This document shows positions 2,867 through 59,196 of a stretch of 64,000 bases of DNA, piece after piece. A program made the translations under genes and the position numbers. How positions within the stretch are numbered: the stretch's first letter is position 1; each line of letters starts with the position of its first letter. The notes under the pieces were generated by a model that had not been told where the DNA came from, did not search any database, and worked only from the letters and a program-made list of their open reading frames with translations. Origin of the DNA: a virus. Location: positions 35,924 to 99,923 of IMG/VR virus record IMGVR_UViG_3300037246_001176, one strand, 5' to 3'.

Positions 2867-3616
2867 GCCTCATCCCTTCCGTCGTCGGGCAGCGGAACCG
2901 GATTCTCAGGCCCAAACAGCCACCATTTCCAGTCTGGAAAATGCTCCCGCCAATAATGCGCCGCCAGCTTTGACTTGTCCCCCGTCTCTTCTGCCTTCAG
3001 AACGATGTCGAGGAATTCTTGTTGTCGCTCAGCCTCGGTTGTCACTCGCCGCTCCCCTGCTCTGCCCCAGTTACGGGGGATTCAAGAACTCCTATCACTG
3101 AACAATTCTCATGCCCAGCCAAGAACCTTATATCGCTGAGAAGTGACTGTAGATAAAGTATCAAGTCAGCATCGCTCCTTGTCTCAAACGCCCTCAAGGC
3201 CAAATCAAGAAAATCGTATCTGTGTCCTGCTGTCACTCGCTGCCCTCCGGCTCTGGTTCTTCCTCTTTGAGTTTGAATCTGACATAGGATCGCCAATCCG
3301 TGAACTCAATGAGTTCAATAAGACCTATTCTTCCCGCCGGAACTTCGTCAGTCCACACTATGGGAAAGCCGAATATGCTTTGCGGCAAGTCTTGCTTGTC
3401 CTGTTCCTGTCCAGCTTCAGTCGTCATCCGCTTCCTCCTCACCCTGTTTTTCCAGCATCGGCAAGTACAATTTAAGAACCAGGCCCAACAGGCCGCCGCC
3501 TGCTTCTTGGCGCTCCATCTCTTTGAGAAATTTGCGTGCTATGTCAGGAGGAACGAGCATTCCCCCTATCATCTCTTGCTGCTCTGACGCATCTGCTTTC
3601 TGCCCATCAATTGCTG

Positions 3617-24016: not shown

Positions 24017-24931
24017 TTACACCGGCCTCCCCAACCTCAAGAAAGTCTCAAATTCCCGCGCCGTTAAGCCCGCCACCAGCATATCGTCGGGTTTCATCGG
24101 AAGGTTCGCCACCCTCACCTTCTCCGCCCCTGCCTGCGACAGCATCTTGCCCAGCCGCCACGCCTGGACTTTGGCGTCCGGGTCGAGCGCCACGAAAACG
24201 TCGTGCCCACGGAACATCGGCAGCCATGCCTCGTCGAACCCCTCCTTGCCCATCTGTGCTACTGTTGGAAAAACCTGCCCGACGACGATGGCTTTCCTGC
24301 AGCCCTCCACAAGCGCCACCCTGCCGTTCTCGCTCAGGACGCTGGCGTTGAACAGTTGCAGGCCCAGGCCCGCCATGTGCGGCCTGTACTTGTCGCCGCT
24401 GTTCGCGCCCTTCAGTCGGTGGCGGATGTTGAGCAGCTCGCCGCCCGCGCCCGTCACTGGGATGGTGTAGCTGGCCCTGCCTTCCACGTCGGTCGGGCAG
24501 CAGAGGCAGAAGCCGAGGCTATAGCTGTAGAATGACTCCATGTTCACGCCCTGGGCCAGCCACCAGTCCAAGGCTCCGGGCGTCACGCCGGCGGCCTTGT
24601 GATATGCTAAATGGTCTTTGTTGTGCGCCATACTCTCTACTGCCTGTAAGCGTTTCTCCTGGTCTTTTTGCTGACGTTCTAGCGTCCGAACGCGCATTTC
24701 CATCAAGTCGGCGGGGGACGGGCGCTTGGCTCCTGCCAGGTCGTCGACCCATCCCTTGCGCCCGCAATGCCCTTCCTCCGGGCTGGGCCTGCACCAGTAA
24801 TTTCCCCGCTCCCAAATGTGATAACGGTCTTTTCCCCCGCACCAAGGACAACTCCCTGCCCACTCATCATGCCCGACCTTTTTGAGTTGGATGCCGAAAT
24901 GAGACTCGATAAAGCCGATGGGGTCAATCAT
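24017..24931 (-). CDS. DNA primase (zinc finger plus TOPRIM)
   Basis: CPWCGGKDR...YWCR, LVEG, ALDPD, KPDD. Confidence 0.85.
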   Translation of the reverse strand: MIDPIGFIESHFGIQLKKVGHDEWAGSCPWCGGKDRYHIWERGNYWCRPSPEEGHCGRKGWVDDLAGAKRPSPADLMEMRVRTLERQQKDQEKRLQAVESMAHNKDHLAYHKAAGVTPGALDWWLAQGVNMESFYSYSLGFCLCCPTDVEGRASYTIPVTGAGGELLNIRHRLKGANSGDKYRPHMAGLGLQLFNASVLSENGRVALVEGCRKAIVVGQVFPTVAQMGKEGFDEAWLPMFRGHDVFVALDPDAKVQAWRLGKMLSQAGAEKVRVANLPMKPDDMLVAGLTAREFETFLRLGRPV

Positions 24932-25770
24932 GGTCGTCCTCCGTTCGGCATCTGGTTCCATTTCTGCCCATCAAGGCGGCGGCCAGCGGCTTTCTTGCCG
25001 ACGCGCCCCATCAGGTTTCTATCGGGCCACCAGTGTAATTTCTGTGGTAAGGGATACCTGGCGTCAGCGGGTATATGTGCCCACGCTCCCCACTGCTTAA
25101 AAAACCGTGCAATCCCGTGCTTGCCCGCCCAGTCCCTCGCGTTTCTGAACCAGTCGGGATGTGCTGGTCTCGCACCTGGCCCGCTCTCACCGCCAAAAAT
25201 CAAAAGGTCGATGAACTCCCATCCTGTCCAATCCACGGGGCCGAGAGCGGGTTCATAAGAAACGAACTTCACGGCGGCGGGGGTAGCCTCAAAATCCCGG
25301 CGGCACGCATCGGCTGCGGCCTGGTTCTCAACGGAGACGCCGAGCCAGATGTGCCGAAACGAACGCAAGCTCAGGCTTGTCTTTTCCTGAAACCACACTA
25401 CAAATTGCAGCATCCTTTCGAGCCTCTTCGTGAGGATCGGAAACGTGTGCCATTCAGCTGCTATGATCGTGGCGAAAATCTCACCTATAACTCCAAAAGA
25501 CACATCCTCGTGAAATAGGTCACCCATGTATTGCGCGCCAATGACAGCAGGCTTCTTTCGCCTCAATGGTTCGTGCAGCCTCAACTCAACCAATACTGGC
25601 GCATCACCAGCGTAGGCCGCCCTCACCGTGGGGCAAAAGACAATATTGTAAGACATCCGGTTGGCCATGCGCAGATGCCAACAGTGCTTGCATCCCTCCG
25701 AGACCTTACTACATCGCATGGCTATTGGATTCCAGGTGAAGTCAAGATATTCTATGCTCGTTCGGTTCAC
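24928..25770 (-). CDS. Gp37/Gp68 (DUF5131) family protein
   Basis: TWNP, CSKVSEGCKHC, MGDLFHE, LTKR, SYEP, GGESG, FFKQWG. Confidence 0.92.
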   Translation of the reverse strand: MNRTSIEYLDFTWNPIAMRCSKVSEGCKHCWHLRMANRMSYNIVFCPTVRAAYAGDAPVLVELRLHEPLRRKKPAVIGAQYMGDLFHEDVSFGVIGEIFATIIAAEWHTFPILTKRLERMLQFVVWFQEKTSLSLRSFRHIWLGVSVENQAAADACRRDFEATPAAVKFVSYEPALGPVDWTGWEFIDLLIFGGESGPGARPAHPDWFRNARDWAGKHGIARFFKQWGAWAHIPADARYPLPQKLHWWPDRNLMGRVGKKAAGRRLDGQKWNQMPNGGRP

Positions 25771-32123: not shown

Positions 32124-32696
32124 TCATCCGTCTATCAAATTCTCCCGTTTTAGCCAATGTATAAAATCCAAATCGTCTTGGTTGAGTTTGAACCATTCAT
32201 TTGTTACTAGTTTTTTATCCGTTATATGCTTTTCATCAAACCAAGTTTGTAGATGAGATTCAGCAACTTCCATGTCACAACTTTCTAATATGTAGAGTAT
32301 CTTGACTGGCTTGCCCATTCCATACTGAATTGCAATTCTGCGCTGTGCTACATCAACACTTTGACCGATCTTGTAAATACCGTTACATTCCATCACATAT
32401 ACATATCCATGTCGAGAAATCCCATCCCATCCTTGACTATTCTTATAATGATCGTCATAAGAATAGCGCCACTTAGCTATTAGATTGTAACGAGTTGTAT
32501 CTGCCTTACAGTCGTAAAATTTCCTCACTATGTCAGATAATTTTTGGAAGTCTTCTAAAGATAAAATAGTTCCATCCTTGCGAGTGAGACAAAAATATTC
32601 CTCTTTAGTCACTGGGTCATAAGCGACTGCTCGCATAGACAACAAGTCATAAGGAGCAAGCATCTGACCAATTTCTCGTAATTGTCGGTCTGACAT
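32124..32696 (-). CDS. T5orf172 / GIY-YIG domain protein
   Basis: GYVYVM...YKIGQS...RR...ESHL...NEWF. Confidence 0.85.
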   Translation of the reverse strand: MSDRQLREIGQMLAPYDLLSMRAVAYDPVTKEEYFCLTRKDGTILSLEDFQKLSDIVRKFYDCKADTTRYNLIAKWRYSYDDHYKNSQGWDGISRHGYVYVMECNGIYKIGQSVDVAQRRIAIQYGMGKPVKILYILESCDMEVAESHLQTWFDEKHITDKKLVTNEWFKLNQDDLDFIHWLKRENLIDG

Positions 32697-32974
32697 TTTT
32701 TCTCCTATTCAACAAAAAAGGCATCATTGTCAAGCGGGGTTAGCAGCGAGCGAATTCCCTGTATGCTTCTGGCCGTTCCTGGGGCGAGCCACCGCCCAAT
32801 GCCATCCAACCCGGATCGTTAGTAAAAATGGCATAGCACTTACGCAAGCCGTCTTTGACACCTTGCCAATACTGTTTATCAGATTCGGTTGCCTCTTCCA
32901 ATTGTATTTTGGCATAATTCTGAGCGGCCAAAAAGATTTCAAAAGCCTCTTCCCATTCCATTTTTGCCACTCCT

Positions 32975-33177
32975 CAAATAAAAACCTTCCGCCCTTTTCT
33001 CAGACGGCTTGGCGATTCGGCAGCAGCTTGCGTGTTTTCCAGCACAGGAAAAACACTGCCAAAACCGCCTGAGAAAAACTCAGAAGGTCTTTAGTGCGTT
33101 GCTGCCTAGTTGTTAATCATGGTGGGTGTGCTACTCCCACCTACAAATATTATATCACAAGTTGAATCTGTTGTCAA
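32975..33177 (-). promoter_or_regulatory. Promoter plus structured attenuator leader
   Basis: TTGACA-17-TATAAT (33177-33149); long hairpin 32981-33090 with T-tract. Confidence 0.7.
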
Positions 33178-36198: not shown

Positions 36199-36717
36199 CT
36201 ATTCGTTAGTAACCGCCACCAGCCAGTCGCCGTACCCCGCGCACAGCGGCCTGACCTGGCTCTCCCAGTCAAGCTCGCCAGCCCCGCAGCCGGGGCGCGG
36301 CAGGTAGACTTGCGTCCATCGTTCCCACATCTGCAACTCGGCCAGCTCTTTTAACGACTGCTCTATGAGCGGCAGGGATGCTTTCATCGCCCATCCTGGC
36401 ACGGTGCTGCCCCTGATGTACCTGTTGCGCTGGCTCTTGACGACGTTCTGTCCATCACTGATGTCAGACACAGGCTTGACGGGAAAGGCTATCAAGCCCG
36501 GCCTGAGCAGTCGCACCTTGTTGCCGTCGTCCAGCATGGTGCGACCCAACTCCTTGGCGAGTCTCGGAAAGCGGACGCTGGCCTGCGCCGCCGTGCCACG
36601 ACCCATGACCGCCCTGCCGTCACTTCTGACGAAGCCGTTGGTAGTGATGCAGACAGCATAGTCGCTTGGTTTCTGGAAATCGTAGATTCGCCAGATATCT
36701 ATTATTCGTTCGATCAC
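36199..36717 (-). CDS. Macrodomain (ADP-ribose binding/hydrolase, TARG1/DarG-like)
   Basis: TTNG...VMGRGTA, FPVK, LPRPGCGAGELDW. Confidence 0.85.
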   Translation of the reverse strand: MIERIIDIWRIYDFQKPSDYAVCITTNGFVRSDGRAVMGRGTAAQASVRFPRLAKELGRTMLDDGNKVRLLRPGLIAFPVKPVSDISDGQNVVKSQRNRYIRGSTVPGWAMKASLPLIEQSLKELAELQMWERWTQVYLPRPGCGAGELDWESQVRPLCAGYGDWLVAVTNE

Positions 36718-37218
36718 CCCGCCTCCTTTTCGCACTCGCCGCAGTGGCAAGTGCCCTTGACGCTTCTGACGATGCTGGCCAGCGGGTGGCCGCAGATGGG
36801 GTTGAGCCCAAGAGCCGCCATCCCCGCCTCACGATCCAAACCATCAACGGGCGCTAACACCCATGCGATAGCCCATGTTTGAGGTTCCACTTGCCTGGCT
36901 CGCTTCTCCATCTCCCGCCATGCTGCTATTGCACTTGCTAATTTCTCTGCGGATAAGAACCCAAATAATTCTTGCATCGTCACTCCTCCCATTCCGTTAT
37001 CCCCGTTTGCCGACATCAGGCGTTGAAAAGCTCTTTCATCGCCCGGTCGAACGCCGTGCCCGACGCCTGCGCCCTGCAAGCCCCGCAAAGCACCGGCGGC
37101 GGCCACTTCTCAGTCTCGTGCCAGAATGTCCTGTCGCAATGCTGGCAGGCCACCGGCACGGAGGTTTTCTTGTCCCTGAAAGTTTCTTCGTCTGGCATGG
37201 TTGTCTCCTGTTTGTTTG

Positions 37219-37370: not shown

Positions 37371-38615
37371 GTTGCTACCGTTGCATCAGATCTCGAATCG
37401 CGTGACGACCTCTTTGGCCTTTGGCGTGACGATCTCGCCCTTGATGATGAGAGCGAACGGGCCATCCCAATACTGTACGTCTATGGTATCGGGTAGAGCC
37501 GCCAATACGTCTGCTGCCATGAGTTCAATGTCTCCGTGTTCGTCTGGATTCAGTCGTTTTAGCAAGCCGTCCCTGGTTTCACTGGTGATGCGGATGTCTC
37601 CATCCCCATCGGCGCTGATGATAAAATACGTCACTTCTTCCACTATCCACCTCTGTTTCTTTCTCCGTCTCGCTGGCAGGGATGCGGGATTGCTACCCGA
37701 ACTTCCCATGCAGGTCTTGGAAGACCGAAGGCGCTTCTCCGTGCCCCAGCCTCTCCATCTCGCGCGTGGCGTGAATGTGCTGCACCGTCCCAGGGCCGTA
37801 CCAGGCCAGAAGCTCGCGCGCCTGCGCCAGCCGCCGCTTGGTGCTGGCAATTCGTTTCGGCGGCGTTGGCTTTCGCTGTCTGCTCATGACCCTATCCGCC
37901 AACTGCCGAGAAACGCTTTTCTGGACGGCAACGCAGCATCAACGTGCCGATGCCAGCGTCCGACAAGCTGGTGATGATGGTGTAGCCGTGTCCGTCCGTT
38001 ACCACAAAATCCTCGGCCCACGACGGCCAGGCGATAGCCTCGCTTTCCTCCGCACGGTCGCGGGCCTTGTCCCTGCCAGTCCGATAGCAGAAGTTGTCTT
38101 TCCTGCTGCACAGAGCAACGCCCGTGTTGATCACCTGACCACCGTCGTCAAGGATGAGACAGACAGTCATGCCGCCTCTCGGCATAGGCTCCCACGGGGT
38201 TAACCGCTTGCCGTTCTCATCCTTGCCAGACCGGTAATGCGCCAAGATGGTGTCAGCAGATGGTCGGTAACGCTTGTTGCTGTACACCCTGTAATGCCTG
38301 AATGTCGTCCTCATTTGTTCTCCTTTCGTTCGTATGTGCCAAGTGGCATAGTTCGTTCTGGATTCCAGAACTAGGTTTCGTCCCCGACGATCTTGGTGAT
38401 CTCTACTATTACTCCGTCGCCAATCTCAAATATCACAACCTGCCTCTCCGCCGTCACCAGGCTCAGCTCGTCGCCGCGCCAGTAGCAGCTGGCGGCGTAG
38501 TGGGTCGTGCCGTCTATGGTGACGATGTAGTTGGCCCAGGGCGGCGGCGCGGACAGGGCGCAGGCCAAGAGGAGCAGGGAGATGCAGACTATGACAAGCA
38601 GGGTTGTCTTAGCGT

Positions 38616-39896
38616 TCATGCCGCTTCCTCCCTGTCTATCACCGATTCGTCTTCCTTCAAATACCCTTCCAAGAGGCCAAATGTGAATGATTTGGCTTTG
38701 AGTATGCCAAACCATTTTTCGTGTTCGATCCGTATCGCGATGCCCTCACGGATATGATCTCCGAACAGCGACGGCCCCTCGGCCAAAAGCCCGGCCAGAG
38801 ACATCAGTCCTTCCCTGTCGCTCTCTTCATTGACGAAAGATGGCGGCTCGACTTCACGGACGTACTTTACGCCAAGTTCGCTGGCCCGCCTCTTGACAGC
38901 CCACCAAGGAAGTTCTGTTGTTACGCCGTCCTCGTTGTTCATCGTGATTCTGTAAATGTAGAACGCCTGTGTCCCGGTAGGACAGCCATATGTGTAGAAC
39001 ATCTTGTCGCCGTATCTCTCCCGTACAGACTTGTTGCGAAGCCGCGTCGTATCGTGAGCAGGCATGATAGGCGTCTCTGCCCCAGCCCAGCCCACGATCT
39101 CGCCATAAACAACTTCGCCTTTGTGAAGATTGCCCATCAGCCGCCGAGTAGCGTTGACGCGAAATGCTTCATCTCCATACCAAGAATCTCCCGTCCATTT
39201 TTCAAGTATCACTCTGCGCGTTCCCGATAAGTAGCGATAGCCGCGTTCAAGCAGCGGCTTTCTCATCAGGAATTTGTACAGACGGCCAACTAAGCCCCGG
39301 CGCTCGCTTTCATCATAGACGTGGCCGATACGGTGCGATGTGCCGTGCATCTTCTCGGTGACGGTCATCAGACTGCCGAGTGGGATGCGATCCGCCCAGG
39401 CGCGGAACTGCTTGACGTCGAACATCATAGGGAACGTCTTGGTCTCGCGGCGATGCCGGATCCGCCTGTTCCCGGCGGCGCAGGCGGTCGCCTGCGTGAT
39501 GTACTTGTTGCAGATCGGCACGCCGTTGAGCGCGTTGAACTCATCGCCCAGCTTGAGCTTCGCGAGATTCGTGCCCGTAAACTCAAAATAATCCAGCGGA
39601 CACCAGAAGCCATAAGACTTCTCGCCGCGAAAGTTCTGTGCCCGCACGCGCCTGTTCTTGGCGAAGAAGCCGCCTTCGCGTTCTCCCGTCTCGGGATTCT
39701 TTCTCTGGACAAGATCATGTTCGGCGGCAAATGCTTCTGACAGTTGGCCGTCGCTCGGAAAGAAGACACCAACCTCGTCGTCCTCCGTGTCAAGCCCTAC
39801 GACAACCTGATATCCGAGCACCAGTCCCAGCTGGATGCGGTCTGCGTTCGGGTGCGGCCTCGTTTGTATCTTTGTTACCGTAGCTTTGTAGGACAT
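38616..39896 (-). CDS. RNA ligase, DRB0094-like family
   Basis: N-terminal HPNADR OB-like domain; motifs TEKMHG, GEIVG, REGIAIR, LKAKS; start reassigned to MSYKA after AGGAG. Confidence 0.88.
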   Translation of the reverse strand: MSYKATVTKIQTRPHPNADRIQLGLVLGYQVVVGLDTEDDEVGVFFPSDGQLSEAFAAEHDLVQRKNPETGEREGGFFAKNRRVRAQNFRGEKSYGFWCPLDYFEFTGTNLAKLKLGDEFNALNGVPICNKYITQATACAAGNRRIRHRRETKTFPMMFDVKQFRAWADRIPLGSLMTVTEKMHGTSHRIGHVYDESERRGLVGRLYKFLMRKPLLERGYRYLSGTRRVILEKWTGDSWYGDEAFRVNATRRLMGNLHKGEVVYGEIVGWAGAETPIMPAHDTTRLRNKSVRERYGDKMFYTYGCPTGTQAFYIYRITMNNEDGVTTELPWWAVKRRASELGVKYVREVEPPSFVNEESDREGLMSLAGLLAEGPSLFGDHIREGIAIRIEHEKWFGILKAKSFTFGLLEGYLKEDESVIDREEAA

Positions 39897-39922
39897 CCCT
39901 CGTTCTCCTGTTCTCCTGAAAA

Positions 39923-40022
39923 GGCTGCGGGCAGGTCTCGCACCTGCCTGTCCCCGTCGGGCGCTCCCCTTCCGTGTGGGAGCCGTGAGTGCATCAGTAG
40001 TTGTGCCCACGCCGCCACAGCC
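39923..40022 (-). ncRNA. tRNA-like RNA
   Basis: 8-bp acceptor-like stem GGCTGTGG/CCGCAGCC adjacent to T-arm-like GCAGG-TGCGAGA-CCTGC. Confidence 0.55.
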
Positions 40023-40028
40023 TTTTTC

Positions 40029-40149
40029 TAGAATAACACAGGGGCGGAAGTGACTTCGGTACGTTTAAACCCCCTGATCGCACCGCCTCTTTAGGCTCAT
40101 ATAGCCCTTCACGTGACCGCAGGGCTTCAGCCAAGGCTGTGTTATTCTA
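40029..40149 (-). ncRNA. Structured RNA with a 13-bp perfect closing stem
   Basis: tagaataacacag / ctgtgttattcta; internal AGCCCT/AGGGCT. Confidence 0.55.
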
Positions 40150-40151
40150 TT

Positions 40152-40279
40152 TCGCGGTCGGTGGTGGACGTCGCCAGCCCTTACCCACACATCCCGTTAC
40201 CGGTTGCCCGATGGCTCCGTACTCATGCGTCCATTCCAGGCAACTTACCACGTCAATTCGTGGTCTGGCCTGACCGCGA
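40152..40279 (-). ncRNA. Multibranch structured RNA
   Basis: TCGCGGTC/GACCGCGA, GCCAG/CTGGC, ACCACG/CGTGGT, GTTGCC/GGCAAC. Confidence 0.55.
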
Positions 40280-40294
40280 TTCAGCGTCAGAAAC

Positions 40295-41134
40295 TCAAGC
40301 CGCCTGCACCAGCTCAACTTTGGTGAGGTCTCGCCACTTCGGATTCTTCGGGCTGGGAATCCAACTCACCTTCATTGGCATGTGGTATTCCTGCCCCACA
40401 CTTTCAATATCAAAGTGTCCAGCCACATATCCGGCGCTTGCCAATGCGGGGGCAACTTCTAGCAGCTTTGCTCCGCCTCTCTGCCAGCGCACCTCCGGAA
40501 AGTCACGTCCCTTACGTCGAAACTCAACCACGGCCTTACCGTCAGGCGCAGTGATGCGAATGAAATCAATAGGTTCCACCGTCACCTTGTTGACGTTCAC
40601 CGCTGGCACGGCAGCCTGCCCCGGCGCTGGCGGCGTGGTTCCCGGCGCTGCTGGCGGGGGCGGCGCGGCCTGGGCCGGTGCGGGGGGAGGGGAGGCAGAC
40701 AGCGCGGGAGGTTGCTTTGTTTCCTGCGGCTTGTCGTCCTTGCGGCGGGCGTACCGCGCTATCGTCTCGCGGGTATCGCGGCCCAAGACCGGGCCAGCGC
40801 CCAGTTCTTTGAGCCACTTGCTCACATGGCCCATCTCCAAGAGCAGCGCTTTCGTGCCCTCGGCGGTCGCCCCCTCGCGCATGGTGAAATTGATTTCTAC
40901 GCCGCCCAAGAGGAAGGTGGTAAATGCGATGCAAGTCGCCTCACGATGTCCTGGCTCTATCAGTTCTCGCAAGATCTCCCCCGCGCTTTTGTCTTTCTCT
41001 GGCACTTGTTTCTGTTCCTGTCCCCCGCTTGCTTTTGCTTCCTCGCTCACTGTCTGTTCTCCTTTCACTAGTCGTTCTATGGATTGACGTTGACGTACCA
41101 GTCCCGCCAGACTTTCACGGTTTCTGGCGGCCAC
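40295..41134 (-). CDS. Hypothetical two-domain protein with Pro/Ala linker (start uncertain)
   Basis: PPPAPAQAAPPPPAAP linker. Confidence 0.6.
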   Translation of the reverse strand: MAARNRESLAGLVRQRQSIERLVKGEQTVSEEAKASGGQEQKQVPEKDKSAGEILRELIEPGHREATCIAFTTFLLGGVEINFTMREGATAEGTKALLLEMGHVSKWLKELGAGPVLGRDTRETIARYARRKDDKPQETKQPPALSASPPPAPAQAAPPPPAAPGTTPPAPGQAAVPAVNVNKVTVEPIDFIRITAPDGKAVVEFRRKGRDFPEVRWQRGGAKLLEVAPALASAGYVAGHFDIESVGQEYHMPMKVSWIPSPKNPKWRDLTKVELVQAA

Positions 41135-41835
41135 AGCAGCCGCACCTTGTTGCTGACACCGAGGTCAACTAGCATCTTCTGCTCGTGCGCTATGACCGAC
41201 TGGCGCGAAAGACCCACACGCCCCGCTATCGCGGCGTGGGTCAAGCCTTTGAATCCGCTGGCGGGAAAGCGCAGGGCGAATATCACTTCGTCTTTCCGCG
41301 ACCACGGGAGAGAGTTTCGCCCCTGGTCGTCTAGATTCTTATAGGCATTGCGCGGCGACAGCCTCGTCGGCAGCGGCAGGTCGCCCGCTCCTTCTCGGAA
41401 GCTCTTGAGCGCATCGCCGCCGTGCCGCACCGCCGGAAGCAGCCGCGTTATCACCGAGCAGTGCGCGGTGCTCCGAAAGCCCAGGAAGCAGGCAAATTCG
41501 TCCGTGGTCAATGGTTCTGTTGGTAGCGGTTCCGTCATGATGTCGGTCAAATATGCCCGACATGGAGCTAGTACCGCTTTCAGAATACCATACCCTATGT
41601 TACGTTTGTGCTGAACACGGCCAGCCTGCGTTCCACCAAGCTGTGCTATCATTTCCTTGCGCGAAAGACCAGCAACAATGCTCTGGCACGTTACCACATC
41701 GTCAATACTGTAGCCAAGCGTGAGTAATGCTGTCATCTTTGCCTGGATGCATTCCGTGAAAGCGGCAGTACGCTCTGGATCGAGCCGCCACTGCTTTCCA
41801 AAAATTGAGTTCATCTGTCGCCGTCCGATATTCAT
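41077..41835 (-). CDS. Putative HTH / sigma region-4-like regulator
   Basis: LTHAAIAGRVGLSRQSV; own promoter TTGACA-17-TATAAT at 41901-41873. Confidence 0.55.
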   Translation of the reverse strand: MNIGRRQMNSIFGKQWRLDPERTAAFTECIQAKMTALLTLGYSIDDVVTCQSIVAGLSRKEMIAQLGGTQAGRVQHKRNIGYGILKAVLAPCRAYLTDIMTEPLPTEPLTTDEFACFLGFRSTAHCSVITRLLPAVRHGGDALKSFREGAGDLPLPTRLSPRNAYKNLDDQGRNSLPWSRKDEVIFALRFPASGFKGLTHAAIAGRVGLSRQSVIAHEQKMLVDLGVSNKVRLLWPPETVKVWRDWYVNVNP

Positions 41836-42428: not shown

Positions 42429-42447
42429 TTCAGACTCCCTTTCTAAC

Positions 42448-42557
42448 TTGACAATTATTTTGGTTTGTGGTACAATGACTACACTGTCCTTGAGCGGTTC
42501 TCCCGCTCATCTGTTCTCCTGAAGAAGCTCAGCATTACGCGCCGCTGAGCTTCTTTA
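42448..42557 (+). ncRNA. Small RNA (about 75 nt) with its own promoter and terminator
   Basis: TTGACA-17-TACAAT (42448-42476), hairpin TGAGCGG/CCGCTCA, terminator AAGAAGCTCAGC/GCTGAGCTTCTT plus T-tract. Confidence 0.65.
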
Positions 42558-42781
42558 TTTCTGGACTCCAGAACCGTCAACGGTCTAAAGACGGCTCTGG
42601 CAAGTCAAGCCTGGACGCATAGGCACGCAACCGCACCGCCAGCCGAGTGCGCCAGTGCCGCTGCCACCGAACATGGATTCGCTCCCGTTCCTGGCGTTCT
42701 GCTTCCCTCATCGCCCGCATGCAAACTCGCATCCCCCTGAACACAGGCTCCCAAGCCATGTGTTCCCGCGCTTCCTCAAAA

Positions 42782-43561
42782 TCAAGCGGTATTGACATCA
42801 TTATCCTCCGTCCACCCCATGAACTTGCTCCTCGGCCACGGATCATCCATCCATGACACATCTGGCTCCGGCAGCATCAGAGCTTCCGCCACCGTCAGCA
42901 GCCGCGCATCGTCGCCGTCTTTGAGGATGATGGGTTCCCACGGTGACCTGGTGCGCGTGCCCCTCTTCGTCATCCACCAGAGCTTCTTCTGCGCCAGCAG
43001 CGCCTCGTATGTCTCCGCCGTAGTCCTGGCGTCCTGGGCCACGTACTCCAAGACCTCGTTTTGGGCCTTGCGGCTCTCGGCCCACATCTTCGGAGCTAAC
43101 GCGCCGCTCATGCCCTCGGTCTTGCCCGCCAGCCCCAGCCCGTCCGCCATCGCAGCCAAGCCGACCATAAAGCCTCTCTGACACAGCATCTGGAATGCCA
43201 TGTCAATATGATCCAACGCTAAGATGCGGCAGCTGTCCAGCCACTCGCCGCCGCCGCACTCCTCCTGGAGCACATCGAGATCGAATCCGAGACCGTTGAA
43301 CGTGACGACGCGGAAGCCTTTGCCATACATGGCGCACAGGTAGAACGCCAAGTCCTGGCACTCCTCTGACGTCATCCTGGCCGGGAGCATGACGCTGTCA
43401 AATATCGCGCCTCCCGGCAGCGATCCGTGCCACAGCCGCGTCTCGCCGCTGCTGGTGAGCGTGGCGGCGCAGGAGATGCCGAGGGGGCGGTGGGTCTTCC
43501 AGTCGTCTTCGCCTTCGGGGATTTCTTTGGTGATTTCTAGATCAAACGTGACATGTTTCAT
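42782..43561 (-). CDS. DEDD / RNase H-like 3'-5' exonuclease
   Basis: FDLEI, TFNGLGFDL, HIDM, EYVAQD. Confidence 0.85.
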   Translation of the reverse strand: MKHVTFDLEITKEIPEGEDDWKTHRPLGISCAATLTSSGETRLWHGSLPGGAIFDSVMLPARMTSEECQDLAFYLCAMYGKGFRVVTFNGLGFDLDVLQEECGGGEWLDSCRILALDHIDMAFQMLCQRGFMVGLAAMADGLGLAGKTEGMSGALAPKMWAESRKAQNEVLEYVAQDARTTAETYEALLAQKKLWWMTKRGTRTRSPWEPIILKDGDDARLLTVAEALMLPEPDVSWMDDPWPRSKFMGWTEDNDVNTA

Positions 43562-57805: not shown

Positions 57806-57831
57806 TTGTGTAGATAGATGCAACTATTCAG

Positions 57832-57903
57832 CACCCCGGTGAGGGCTTGAACCTCAACTAGCGGGTTTGGAGGCCGCCGTTCTGCCGGTTAAACTACCGG
57901 GGC
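57832..57903 (-). tRNA. tRNA-Trp (CCA)
   Basis: GCCCCGG/CCGGGGT acceptor, anticodon loop CTCCAAA, T-arm TGAGG-TTCAAGC-CCTCA, G73; no encoded CCA end. Confidence 0.88.
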
Positions 57904-58642
57904 TTTGATGCTCCGCTTCGGCCCGTCGGCTGTGCCGTCTGCCACGCTGCGGAGCGAGCGGTTGCTGCTCAATTCACTGGCAAGCCGCAGATGTCGCACT
58001 CGCCGCTCTCTACATACCAATCCTCATTCATTCCGTCGCAGCCACCGTCGCAAAACGGGGCTGCTTCGACTTTAGTTATCTCAACCTCGTCGTCAGGCGC
58101 GAGCCACGAACTGACATGCTTTTGGCCTTTAGGAGATTCCAGGCACTCTTGGAGTTCTCGCTTGGTATGGGCCGTGACGATCACCAGCCCGTCGCACTTG
58201 CGTTTCAGCTCCCAGGTCATCATGCTTCCTCTATCATCTTTACGTATAATTCACGCTGGTCTGGCGAAATATTCAGACCTTGATAATGCACCTTGCTGGA
58301 TAGCCCGAACGCCCGCGCCAGCTCCTCGCAGTCCACGTCGCTGGTGTAGTAGTTTACGCCGTTCTCTCTGACATATTCTATGTACAAGCTCTGTCCTGGC
58401 GGTAGCGGGTAAACCATCCGGTTACATGCGGGGTTTTCTTTGTGCGACACCCGCCGCTTTTTGGGAGCCTGCACGCAGAGCCAGCCCCATGCTGTGCCCC
58501 TGCCGCCGGTCACGCTCCAGGTCTTGCCGGTCTTTTTCTTCAGGGCTGCCTTGATTCTCTTTACCGCGTCTTTTCTTTCGATGTAAGCCATGTCCTGAAT
58601 TCTCTCCTCTTCTGCTTGTCTGCTCTCTCTCAACCTGTATAT

Positions 58643-58717
58643 ATTATAGCACAGTATGTTTTATCTGTCAAGCGTTTACCCGAAAACAGCCAAATATTTA
58701 AGGTTAGAGCCTGTTTC
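58643..58717 (-). promoter_or_regulatory. Repeated promoter cassette, copy 4
   Basis: TTGACA-17-TATAAT, CTAACCTTAAA; downstream gene starts at 58591. Confidence 0.8.
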
Positions 58718-59196
58718 ATGCTCCGTTTCCCCTGCCTTCCCGTTTCTGGATTCCAGAACACCTAGCAACAGATACACAAACGCCCTGGGTTGGTCAGGCC
58801 CAGGGCGTCCGGCGAAAGGAGGAGAAAGATGATTTCTATGGATATGATACTATGTGTACGTTCATCCCCGGCAGCTCCAGCTTCAGCAGCCGCCCGTAGC
58901 TGTCTTGGAACTGCCACGGCTCGTCGCACACTTCCGTCCTGTACGGCCTCTCTGGCCAAATGGGAGCGCCGAGCAAGGAGCCGAGCTGCGCCTTCTCTAT
59001 GAGGTGCGCGAATCCCTGAACCGTCCCCGGATGCGGGAACTGTACAGGCTCACCGTCCCACAAGTCGGGGAACCCCTTCCACCAGCCGTGGTCGTGAATC
59101 ATGAAAATGAGCGGCCTGGGCTTGTCCCGCAGAACATAGTTCAGCCAAATCAAAGAGGAGAACTCGCTACCTTTTCGGAACATCTGCTCTGCCGCG

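What the first reader, a model, noticed from the sequence alone, without database searches (positions are those of the whole stretch)
39918..40285. Three back-to-back structured RNAs, one tRNA-like, directly upstream of an RNA ligase
The interval between the 40295 ORF and the ligase RBS is tiled by three self-contained folds. (1) 40279-40152: multibranch with four stems. (2) 40149-40029: perfect 13-bp closing stem. (3) 40022-39923: 8-bp acceptor-like stem next to a 5-bp T-arm (loop TGCGAGA), with an expanded D-like arm and a GCTCCC/GGGAGC arm lacking a normal 7-nt anticodon loop. Established: phage RNA ligases repair nuclease-cut tRNAs, and bacterial Y RNAs are tRNA mimics found near RNA-repair genes. 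Inference: an RNA-decoy/repair module, or RNAs that the ligase circularises, since their ends are juxtaposed by the closing stems.
Basis: partly seen in the sequence, partly recalled or inferred. Interest (0 to 1): 0.8.

Follow-up and report, generated by a model that had tools for sequence, protein, structure and literature searches.

The report
Anticodon-less tRNA-shaped phage RNA array
The gene-free 398 bases in front of this marine phage's RNA ligase gene encode three folded RNA modules. The last is a tRNA-shaped RNA with no anticodon, from an undescribed family kept in three otherwise unrelated phages; its job is unknown and its tie to the ligase is only partial.

Summary
The ligase starts at ATG 39896, so 39897-40294 is non-coding. 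On the gene (minus) strand it folds into three stem-closed modules at the stated coordinates (z -2.4 to -3.3).

Module 3 (40022-39923) is a real RNA family. A covariance model built only from two other phages hits it at 47 bits (E about 3e-10). Six of the 12 pairs in helices P1 and P2 changed on both sides. The fold is a tRNA-type cloverleaf without an anticodon loop. It matches no Rfam family and ARAGORN does not call it.

Module 1 is kept in a co-occurring strain variant with two compensatory pairs. Module 2 is replaced in that variant.

The link to the ligase is partial. The RNA lies upstream of the ligase in two distantly related phages. A third, complete phage has the RNA but no ligase. 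Twenty-two other ligase-bearing viral records lack the RNA. No Ro60, RtcB or AAA_33-type kinase domain is encoded.

Best reading: co-transcribed, non-decoding tRNA-shaped RNAs that bind a host factor. The function is inferred, not shown.

This scan has noted other stem-closed tRNA-like phage RNAs near RNA ligases on other DNA. None is a sequence look-alike of this one.

The parts
40152..40279 (-). Unit 1: 128-nt four-way junction RNA module. An 8-bp closing stem (40279-40272 with 40159-40152) surrounds three hairpins.
   Evidence: Fold (z -2.40); closing arms (I6). A variant contig in run X1 keeps it with 13 listed substitutions: two double compensatory pairs (C-G to U-A, U-A to C-G), three wobble-compatible changes, and none breaking a main helix. 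No homologue in G001 or G002 by a single-sequence model.
40029..40149 (-). Unit 2: 121-nt three-way junction module with a perfect 13-bp closing stem. It is variable or dispensable.
   Evidence: Fold (z -3.34); arms (I2). In the X1 variant contig, 39988-40149 is replaced by 97 other letters. Contigs about 90% alike exist in a second marine run, X2. Two listed substitutions there break predicted inner pairs, so the inner fold is unconfirmed.
39923..40022 (-). Unit 3: 100-nt anticodon-less cloverleaf RNA, member of a new phage RNA family. P1 40022-40016/39929-39923; P2 40011-40006/39989-39984; P3 39983-39978/39969-39964; P4 39961-39959/39954-39952; P5 39948-39942/39936-39930.
   Evidence: Model R1, built from L005 and L054 only, hits it at 47 bits, E 3.4e-10. 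Covariation: 98% of cells paired, 6 pairs changed on both sides, 0/500 shuffles reach the observed values. One copy per genome in G000, G001 and G002. Variants in runs X1/X2 keep P4 and P5 through wobble or compensatory changes.
39919..40026 (-). Extended closing helix of unit 3 (four A-U pairs added to P1, 12 bp in all).
   Evidence: I3. The L005 homologue can also extend P1 to about 12 bp (read).
39897..39918 (-). Ligase ribosome-binding region: two copies of CAGGAGAAC, with GGAG 8 nt before the ATG.
   Evidence: Sequence.
38616..39896 (-). RNA ligase gene (426 aa): N-terminal OB fold plus adenylyltransferase domain, Rnl5/DRB0094-like build.
   Evidence: Pfam PF09414 and PF21189. TIGR02306 at 37.5 bits, below its 151-bit cut-off. 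Homologues of 426 aa align from residue 1.
40295..41134 (-). Upstream 279-aa ORF of unknown function whose stop precedes unit 1 by 15 nt. Not conserved with the RNA.
   Evidence: No Pfam, PHROG or NCBIfam match. No homologue near the RNA in L005 or L054.

Best explanation
**Shown.** The 398-nt interval is an ORF-free stretch on the gene strand, made of three stem-closed structured RNA modules.

Module 3 belongs to a previously undescribed phage RNA family of 83-103 nt. Its layout is:
- a 7-bp terminal helix P1
- a 4-nt joiner GCGR
- a 6-bp arm P2 with a 15-16-nt loop
- one or two central arms (P3, and P4 capped by GACG)
- a hairpin P5, GGCAGGU-GNRAG-ACCUGCC, that abuts the 3' strand of P1

This is the connectivity of a class II tRNA, but it has no anticodon loop and no canonical D or T loop. 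The RNA is the only detectable feature shared by three otherwise unrelated phage genomes.

**Inferred.**
- No promoter-like or terminator-like signal was found inside the interval, so the modules are probably transcribed with the surrounding operon.
- Module 3 probably acts as a non-decoding tRNA-shaped RNA that binds a host-encoded factor through its invariant P5 hairpin and P2 loop. The partner would be a tRNA-recognising enzyme or nuclease. The RNA would serve as a mimic or decoy, not as a regulator of the ligase.
- The ligase is a facultative neighbour, co-inherited in one lineage. It may keep such RNAs or host tRNAs intact.
- Modules 1 and 2 are lineage-specific, swappable companions.
For: - **Non-coding interval.**; indels in the variant.
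- **Folds and energies.**
- **Homology of unit 3.** An independent model hits it at 47 bits, E 3.4e-10. There is one hit per genome in G000, G001 and G002.
- **Covariation in P1 and P2.** Six of 12 pairs changed on both sides, 98% of cells paired, 0/500 shuffles reach this.
- **Variant reads.** P5 appears as GGUGGU-GAGAG-ACCACC, and a C-to-U change in P4 gives a wobble pair.
- **Unit 1.** Compensatory changes.
- **Strand.** Nine G-U pairs on the gene strand.
- **Transcription signals.** No sigma-70-like promoter in 38400-41400, and no minus-strand terminator-like site between the upstream stop (40295) and the ligase start.
- **Partner is not a shared phage protein.** G001 shares no protein with G000 and one weak hit with G002. 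G000 and G002 share only about five.
- **Link to stable-RNA genes.** In G002 the ligase sits between 830 nt of structured RNA and that phage's only three tRNA genes. That stretch includes a second anticodon-less tRNA-like element with a canonical T arm.
- **Local conservation.** The RNA and the ligase are the only features detectably shared within about 4 kb on either side in G000 and G002.
Against: - There is no expression, end-mapping or binding data of any kind.
- The family has only three full members plus read-level variants, so the covariation statistics are thin. P5 never varies among the three full members.
- The tRNA model of Rfam and ARAGORN do not recognise the RNA.
- The loop UGNRAGA lacks the tRNA U55-C56.
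- The terminal helix extends to 11-12 bp in two members. That does not suit RNase P or the CCA-adding enzyme.
- High sequence constancy of P5 could equally reflect an RNA-RNA or cis-acting role.
- A host partner is inferred only from the absence of a shared phage protein at BLAST sensitivity.
Confidence: 0.4

Rival explanations
1. The modules are cis-acting intercistronic elements. They stay in the polycistronic mRNA and set its processing, stability or the translation of downstream genes (here the ligase), much as tRNA-like or stem-loop punctuation marks do in other systems.
For: All copies lie on the coding strand in intergenic gaps. No promoter or terminator was found inside the interval. 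Every module, also in L005, is clamped by a long terminal helix. The genome holds several other strongly structured intergenic gaps. A 9-nt alternative pairing links units 2 and 3 (I5).
Against: In G002 unit 3 lies about 570 nt from the ligase start with other modules between. In G001 the downstream gene is an unrelated 87-aa ORF. A mere stability element would not keep a 16-nt hairpin sequence and loop motifs invariant across phages that share no proteins.
Confidence: 0.25
2. The interval is one large multi-domain non-coding RNA with a conserved core (unit 3) and variable domains, of the GOLLD/ROOL kind of large phage RNAs that sit beside tRNA genes. It would not be three separate RNAs.
For: The units are tiled with 2-6-nt linkers and the whole-region fold is stable. 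One domain is swapped in a strain variant. The G002 counterpart is 830 nt of continuous structure next to tRNA genes.
Against: No Rfam match to GOLLD, ROOL or any large RNA at E up to 10. Only unit 3 is shared between phages. In G001 unit 3 stands alone, as the only model match in a 199-nt intergenic gap.
Confidence: 0.1
3. The RNAs are substrates or cofactors of the adjacent ligase. They would be cut and resealed, circularised, or used as a splint or guide.
For: Unit 3 and the ligase are the only features shared locally by two distantly related phages. The ligase is their best-conserved protein at 56% identity.
Against: A complete phage has the RNA without the ligase. None of 22 other ligase-bearing records has the RNA. 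No end-healing enzyme was found. Characterised ligases of this build seal nicks in duplexes (PMC1807946, PMC5397189), and a closing stem does not present its ends as a nick.
Confidence: 0.1
4. Unit 3 and its neighbours are decaying remnants of a phage tRNA gene cluster, without function.
For: Cloverleaf topology with a class II-like extra arm. In G002 the region adjoins real tRNA genes, including the class II tRNA-Tyr and tRNA-Leu.
Against: Helices are maintained by compensatory changes across phages that share no proteins. The conserved motifs are not tRNA motifs. No tRNA-model signal is left.
Confidence: 0.05
5. The RNAs are bacterial-type Y RNAs (YrlA class) that work with a Ro60 protein.
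For: YrlA RNAs are tRNA mimics. They occur in tandem and can sit beside RNA ligase genes (PMC4201824, PMC7790460).
Against: No TROVE gene in any of the three phages, although the control genomes gave hits. No GNCGAAN0-1G motif. No Rfam hit. The arm order is the native tRNA order, not the permuted T-acceptor-D order of YrlA.
Confidence: 0.03

Closest known systems
Class II tRNA (Rfam RF00005)
   Same: Same helix connectivity: a 7-bp terminal helix stacked directly on the last hairpin (0-1 nt between), a first arm with a large loop, a central arm, and an optional extra 'variable' arm. The last loop has U at position 1, a purine at 4, A at 5 and a G-C closing pair.
   Different: No 7-nt anticodon loop. 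The joiner is 4 nt, not 2. The first arm is 6 bp with a 15-16-nt loop and has no tRNA-type GG dinucleotide conserved in all members. The last loop is UGNRAGA, not UUCRANY. The terminal helix extends to 11-12 bp. No CCA is encoded. The tRNA covariance model and ARAGORN do not detect it.
YrlA-type Y RNAs of bacteria and phages (Chen et al. 2014, PMC4201824)
   Same: Non-decoding tRNA mimics, often several in tandem, sometimes next to RNA ligase genes. The modules are closed by a long helix formed by the 5' and 3' ends.
   Different: YrlA is defined by adjacency to Ro60, a Ro-binding stem with the GNCGAAN0-1G motif, canonical T and D loops and a permuted arm order. None of these was found here.
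Phage T4 stable RNAs 'species 1 and 2' (rnaC, rnaD) in the tRNA gene cluster (recalled from memory, not checked in a paper here)
   Same: Small stable phage RNAs of unknown function, encoded among tRNA genes and co-transcribed with them. The G002 arrangement (structured RNAs, ligase, tRNAs) is analogous.
   Different: The window's phage has no tRNA gene nearby.
Rnl5 nick-sealing RNA ligases DraRnl and NgrRnl (PMC1807946, PMC4408790, PMC5397189), for the neighbouring protein
   Same: N-terminal OB module followed by an adenylyltransferase domain (PF21189 plus PF09414).
   Different: 426 aa against about 340. The TIGR02306 score is far below its cut-off. No sequence-level hit to solved structures. 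No RNA partner is described for that family.
Other stem-closed tRNA-like phage RNAs noted by this scan (e.g. e1-5341507, upstream of an RNA ligase in a jumbo phage)
   Same: The same theme: a long closing helix around hairpins, tRNA-like features, an RNA ligase nearby.
   Different: That RNA carries a near-canonical T arm. The sequence look-up found no look-alike of unit 3 among earlier windows. These are unchecked AI notes.

Membership tests
tRNA (RF00005) | Detected by tRNA covariance model or ARAGORN | tested here: not met
   No tRNA hit at E up to 10 in 39800-40400. ARAGORN finds only tRNA-Trp at 57831-57903. Relaxed ARAGORN gives only implausible intron-containing calls with mismatched acceptor stems.
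tRNA (RF00005) | Cloverleaf connectivity with the acceptor helix stacked on the T arm | tested here: met
   P1 is 7 bp, with 0-1 nt between P5 and the 3' strand of P1, in all three members.
tRNA (RF00005) | 5-bp anticodon stem with a 7-nt loop | tested here: not met
   P3 has a 6-bp stem with an 8-nt loop in the window, a different arm in L005, and one central arm is missing in L054.
tRNA (RF00005) | Canonical T loop (UUCRANY) and D loop (GG) | tested here: not met
   The loop is UGCGAGA, UGAAAGA or UGAGAGA. The P2 loop consensus is CA.AA...RYGCA.
YrlA Y RNA | Encoded next to a Ro60/TROVE protein | tested here: not met
   PF05731 is absent from G000, G001 and G002, while Deinococcus and Bacteroides controls gave hits. 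A host-encoded Ro60 cannot be excluded.
YrlA Y RNA | Ro-binding stem motif GNCGAAN0-1G | tested here: not met
   No occurrence in the window interval, in L005:3170-4000 or in L054:8746-8944.
YrlA Y RNA | Match to an Rfam Y-RNA-type model | tested here: not met
   No Rfam family at E up to 10 other than chance-level matches to unrelated families.
tmRNA | tRNA-like domain plus tag reading frame, detected by ARAGORN or Rfam | tested here: not met
   ARAGORN tmRNA mode and Rfam found none.
GOLLD / ROOL large phage RNAs | Match to the Rfam models | tested here: not met
   No hit in the window interval or in the 830-nt L005 stretch.
New family defined here (unit 3 type) | P1, GCGR joiner, P2 with its loop motif, and P5 hairpin GGCAGGU-GNRAG-ACCUGCC abutting P1 | tested here: met
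   A model built from L005 and L054 finds the window copy at 47 bits.
Rnl5 / DRB0094 RNA ligase (the neighbouring protein) | N-terminal OB module plus adenylyltransferase domain; TIGR02306 above its cut-off | tested here: inconclusive
   The domain order is met. TIGR02306 scores 37.5 bits against a cut-off of 151. So it is a relative of the clade, not an equivalog.

The most novel reading that the evidence does not exclude
Unit 3 and the ligase form a transferable two-part counter-defence cassette. The phage would make an anticodon-less, tRNA-shaped RNA that soaks up or misdirects a host tRNA-targeting defence enzyme. The nick-sealing ligase would keep this decoy, or the host tRNAs, intact. 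Phages such as G001 would carry the decoy alone.
Probability: 0.12. Interest if true: 0.8.

Novelty: new variant of a known kind. Interest (0 to 1): 0.5.

Why it matters
Non-decoding tRNA look-alikes are turning up repeatedly in phage genomes, but almost none has a known job. This one is a clean case. It is a small RNA that Rfam and tRNA finders do not recognise. Its helices are kept by compensatory mutation. It is the only detectable feature shared by three phages with otherwise unrelated gene sets, which points to a host target. In one lineage it travels with a nick-sealing RNA ligase whose own biological role is uncharted. It is short enough (83-103 nt) for direct biochemistry such as pull-down, RNase P/Z and CCA-adding assays, or structure determination. 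It could therefore give a handle on what such mimics do and on why phages carry Rnl5-like ligases.

Tried and rejected
**Tool failures and limits**
The contigs of the closest ligase relatives (P0002-P0004, 81-86% identity) could not be fetched.
- The single metagenome scan returned only distant ligase loci without the RNA.

**Searches that found nothing or only chance matches**
- GenBank phage blastn with the interval: no match.
- Single-protein scans of IMG/VR with the ligase and the upstream ORF: nothing.
- IMG/VR motif scans. The P5 motif gave 25 hits, of which only L005 and L054 are real. The 5' motif gave 16 hits with no new member. A unit-1 19-mer gave one chance hit in a coding region. 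The variant P5 24-mer gave none.
- GTDB species genomes: a strict motif gave 0 hits, and a looser one gave 2 chance hits of 14-17 bits.
- Unit 1 single-sequence model: no hit in G001 or G002.
- blastn of units 1 and 2 against all ligase loci: nothing.
- Sequence look-up among earlier findings: nothing.

**Readings considered and dropped**
- Relaxed ARAGORN proposed a tRNA-Gly split by a 304-nt intron. I rejected it because its acceptor has two mismatches, while unit 3's own P1 covaries.
- The single-sequence minimum-energy folds of L005 and L054 give an alternative P2. I rejected it because it is not shared by the window copy, whereas the consensus P2 covaries.
- Other ligase loci with gaps of 100-560 nt upstream show no comparable structured array or T-arm.

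**No information**
- Sequencing runs: no RNA holder listed.
- Parts of the interval without cover in X2, and the incomplete list of differences in unit 2, allow no conclusion.

Full report
**Setting.** The window is part of an IMG/VR virus record of 99,923 bp with direct terminal repeats. It was assembled from a marine sediment metagenome. The genes in and around this part of the window lie on the minus strand.

The ORF downstream of the finding is an RNA ligase with an N-terminal OB module (PF21189) and an adenylyltransferase domain (PF09414). This is the domain order of the nick-sealing Rnl5/DRB0094 clade (PMC1807946, PMC5397189). It reaches only 37.5 bits on TIGR02306, whose cut-off is 151.

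The longest ORF starts at GTG 40010, but the real start is ATG 39896:
- Homologues of 421-426 aa align from residue 1 at 81-86% identity.
- The OB domain begins five residues after that ATG.
- GGAG lies 8 nt upstream.

**The observation.** On the minus strand the three units fold as described:

| Unit | Coordinates | Architecture | z-score |
|---|---|---|---|
| 1 | 40279-40152 | 8-bp closing stem, three hairpins | -2.40 |
| 2 | 40149-40029 | perfect 13-bp closing stem, two hairpins | -3.34 |
| 3 | 40022-39923 | cloverleaf-like | -2.62 |

The whole stretch keeps these domains (z -3.37). The closing arms are confirmed as inverted repeats. The opposite strand folds about as well. However, nine G-U pairs in the helices, and further wobble pairs in relatives, favour the gene strand as the RNA strand.

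Rfam gives nothing at gathering thresholds or at E up to 10. ARAGORN finds no tRNA or tmRNA here. No sigma-70-like promoter lies in 38400-41400, and no minus-strand terminator-like site lies between the upstream stop (40295) and the ligase start. Co-transcription with the flanking genes is therefore the simplest assumption.

**Unit 3 is a conserved RNA family.** The closest retrievable ligase relative (L005, record G002, 56% identity) has 830 nt without a credible ORF upstream of its ligase. A stretch there (L005:3328-3430) has the same helix plan as unit 3.

A motif scan of IMG/VR with the shared hairpin found 25 places. Only L005 and L054 (record G001) carried the full structure.

I built a covariance model from L005 and L054 alone, with helices P1, P2 and P5. 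It finds the window copy, which was not in the model, at 47 bits, E 3.4e-10 in 324 kb. It finds exactly one copy in each of the three genomes.

On the model-guided alignment of the three members:
- 98% of cells pair.
- Six of the 12 pairs in P1 and P2 changed on both sides.
- None of 500 shuffles reaches the observed values.
- Sliding the partners destroys pairing.
- P5 is invariant among these three.

Contigs of relatives in two marine runs add further support. They show P5 as GGUGGU-GAGAG-ACCACC, which is a flipped pair plus a lost pair. They also show a C-to-U change in P4 that keeps a wobble pair, and a 2-nt insertion in the P2 loop.

**Anatomy of unit 3.** The plan, 5' to 3', is:
- P1, 7 bp
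- a joiner GCGR
- P2, 6 bp, with a 15-16-nt loop (CA.AA at its 5' side, RYGCA at its 3' side)
- a central arm P3
- a short arm P4 capped by GACG (window and L005; L054 has a single central arm with an ACGG-containing loop)
- 2-3 nt
- P5, which abuts the 3' strand of P1

It fails every sequence-level tRNA criterion:
- There is no 7-nt anticodon loop.
- The last loop is UGNRAGA, not UUCRANY.
- There is no D-loop signature.
- The terminal helix can extend to 11-12 bp in the window and in L005.

**Units 1 and 2.** A second, lower-depth contig in the source run X1 covers 40150-40302 with 13 listed substitutions, a 1-nt insertion and a 3-nt deletion. I mapped these on the fold by script:
- Four substitutions form two double compensatory pairs (C-G to U-A, U-A to C-G).
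- Three are wobble-compatible.
- Four lie in loops.
- Two touch 2-bp helices that are probably not real.
- None breaks a main helix.

Unit 1 is therefore a constrained RNA structure, and the indels exclude coding. I found no homologue of it in G001 or G002 with a single-sequence model.

The same contig replaces 39988-40149, which is unit 2 plus the 5' part of unit 3, with 97 other letters. Unit 2 is thus swappable. Contigs about 90% alike exist in a run of another study, X2. Two of the listed changes there break predicted inner pairs, and the list was truncated. Only the closing stem of unit 2 is secure.

**Relation to the ligase.**

*For a link.* G000 and G002 share only about five proteins, of which the ligase is the best conserved. 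Nothing else within about 4 kb of the ligase is shared. Yet in both, unit 3 lies upstream of the ligase on the same strand: 26 nt upstream in the window and about 570 nt upstream in G002.

*Against an obligatory link.*
- G001 is rated complete. It has the RNA among small early ORFs but no ligase.
- None of 22 other ligase-bearing viral records has a model hit, six of them at least 90% complete. G000-G002 served as positive controls.
- In most ligase loci the upstream gene runs right up to the ligase. The few longer gaps hold nothing comparable.
- None of the three phages encodes Ro60/TROVE, RtcB or an AAA_33-type kinase domain.

There is therefore no recognisable Ro60-, RtcB- or kinase-based healing-and-sealing or Ro-Y RNA system. 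The association is best described as facultative co-inheritance in one ligase sub-lineage.

**What else the relatives show.** In G002 the ligase is embedded in a cluster of stable-RNA genes. Upstream lie 830 nt of stem-closed modules. Directly downstream lie that phage's only three tRNA genes, Phe, Leu and Tyr.

One upstream module (about L005:3797-3923) is a second anticodon-less tRNA look-alike. It has:
- a canonical T arm
- a 7-bp acceptor with G3-U70 and A73
- a long extra arm
- an 8-bp stem with a tetraloop in place of the anticodon arm

Both phages thus carry arrays of clamped, tRNA-derived or tRNA-shaped modules.

G001 shares no detectable protein with G000 and only one weak hit with G002. 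The RNA is therefore the only common denominator. I take this as indirect evidence that its partner is host-encoded or that it acts on its own.

Two motif scans of one genome per prokaryote species found no cellular copy.

**Mechanism.**

*Shown:* a conserved, gene-strand, non-coding, tRNA-shaped RNA, with lineage-specific companion modules.

*Inferred:* the modules are transcribed with the operon. Unit 3 uses its invariant P5 hairpin and P2 loop to bind a host factor that normally recognises tRNA-like shapes, acting as a mimic or decoy. I put this at about 0.4.

*Rivals:*
- cis-acting punctuation or stability elements (0.25)
- a single large multi-domain RNA (0.1)
- a ligase substrate or cofactor, including circularisation (0.1). 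This is disfavoured because enzymes of this build seal nicks in duplexes, and closing stems do not present a nick.
- decayed tRNA genes (0.05). This is contradicted by the covariation.
- YrlA-type Y RNA (0.03). All the defining features I tested are unmet.

**Novelty and verdict.** The kind of thing, a non-decoding tRNA mimic in a phage, is known (YrlA, PMC4201824). This scan has repeatedly noted similar stem-closed tRNA-like RNAs near phage RNA ligases on other DNA (unchecked notes). This particular family matches no Rfam model, no GenBank phage record and no earlier window. I rate it a new variant of a known kind.

Interest is moderate.

Noticed in passing
L005:3797-3923 (record G002): A second anticodon-less tRNA look-alike. 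It has a 7-bp acceptor with G3-U70 and A73 (alanine-type identity marks), a canonical T arm GGGAG-UUCAAGU-CUCCC, a D-like arm and a long extra arm. The anticodon arm is replaced by an 8-bp stem with a GGCA tetraloop, and four outer pairs bulge out ACUA. Default ARAGORN and Rfam do not call it.
   Followed up: partly
L005:3170-4000: An 830-nt ORF-poor, highly structured stretch (z -3.2) made of several stem-closed modules. One (3176-3296) has a 15-bp closing stem (z -3.9). The stretch lies between small ORFs and the ligase, and the phage's only three tRNA genes (Phe, Leu, Tyr) lie just after the ligase.
   Followed up: partly
window 40133-40141 with 40016-40024: A perfect 9-nt complementarity between the 5' side of unit 2 and the 5' strand of unit 3's closing helix. 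It would compete with both closing stems. It may be chance (roughly 0.2-0.3 expected in this stretch) or an alternative conformer.
   Followed up: no
I read the sequences only. One copy lies 1.2 kb downstream of the ligase. There is no Rfam hit at gathering threshold.
   Followed up: partly
window 36199-36750, minus strand: A 183-aa protein with a weak macrodomain-like signal (DarG-type ADP-ribosyl glycohydrolase model, 25 bits; PHROG 335 'phosphatase', E 1.6e-12), about 1.9 kb downstream of the ligase. It has no Pfam hit.
   Followed up: no
window 42429-42604, 32971-33173, 58634-58835: Other intergenic gaps with strongly negative folding z-scores on the gene strand (-4.8, -3.8, -3.4, from 30 shuffles each). 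The phage seems rich in structured intergenic RNA.
   Followed up: no
L054:8750-8773: In record G001 the RNA starts immediately after a terminator-like hairpin (CCGCC...GGCGG followed by a U-run) that ends the upstream gene. That copy would need read-through or its own promoter.
   Followed up: no
window 42782-43561 and 24928-25770, minus strand: Apart from the ligase, the best-conserved proteins between G000 and G002 are a 259-aa RNase H-fold/PolB-type exonuclease (40% identity) and a 280-aa protein (44% identity; genome 60851-61693).
   Followed up: no
window 32124-32696, minus strand: A 190-aa protein with a T5orf172/MUG113 (GIY-YIG-related) domain.
   Followed up: no
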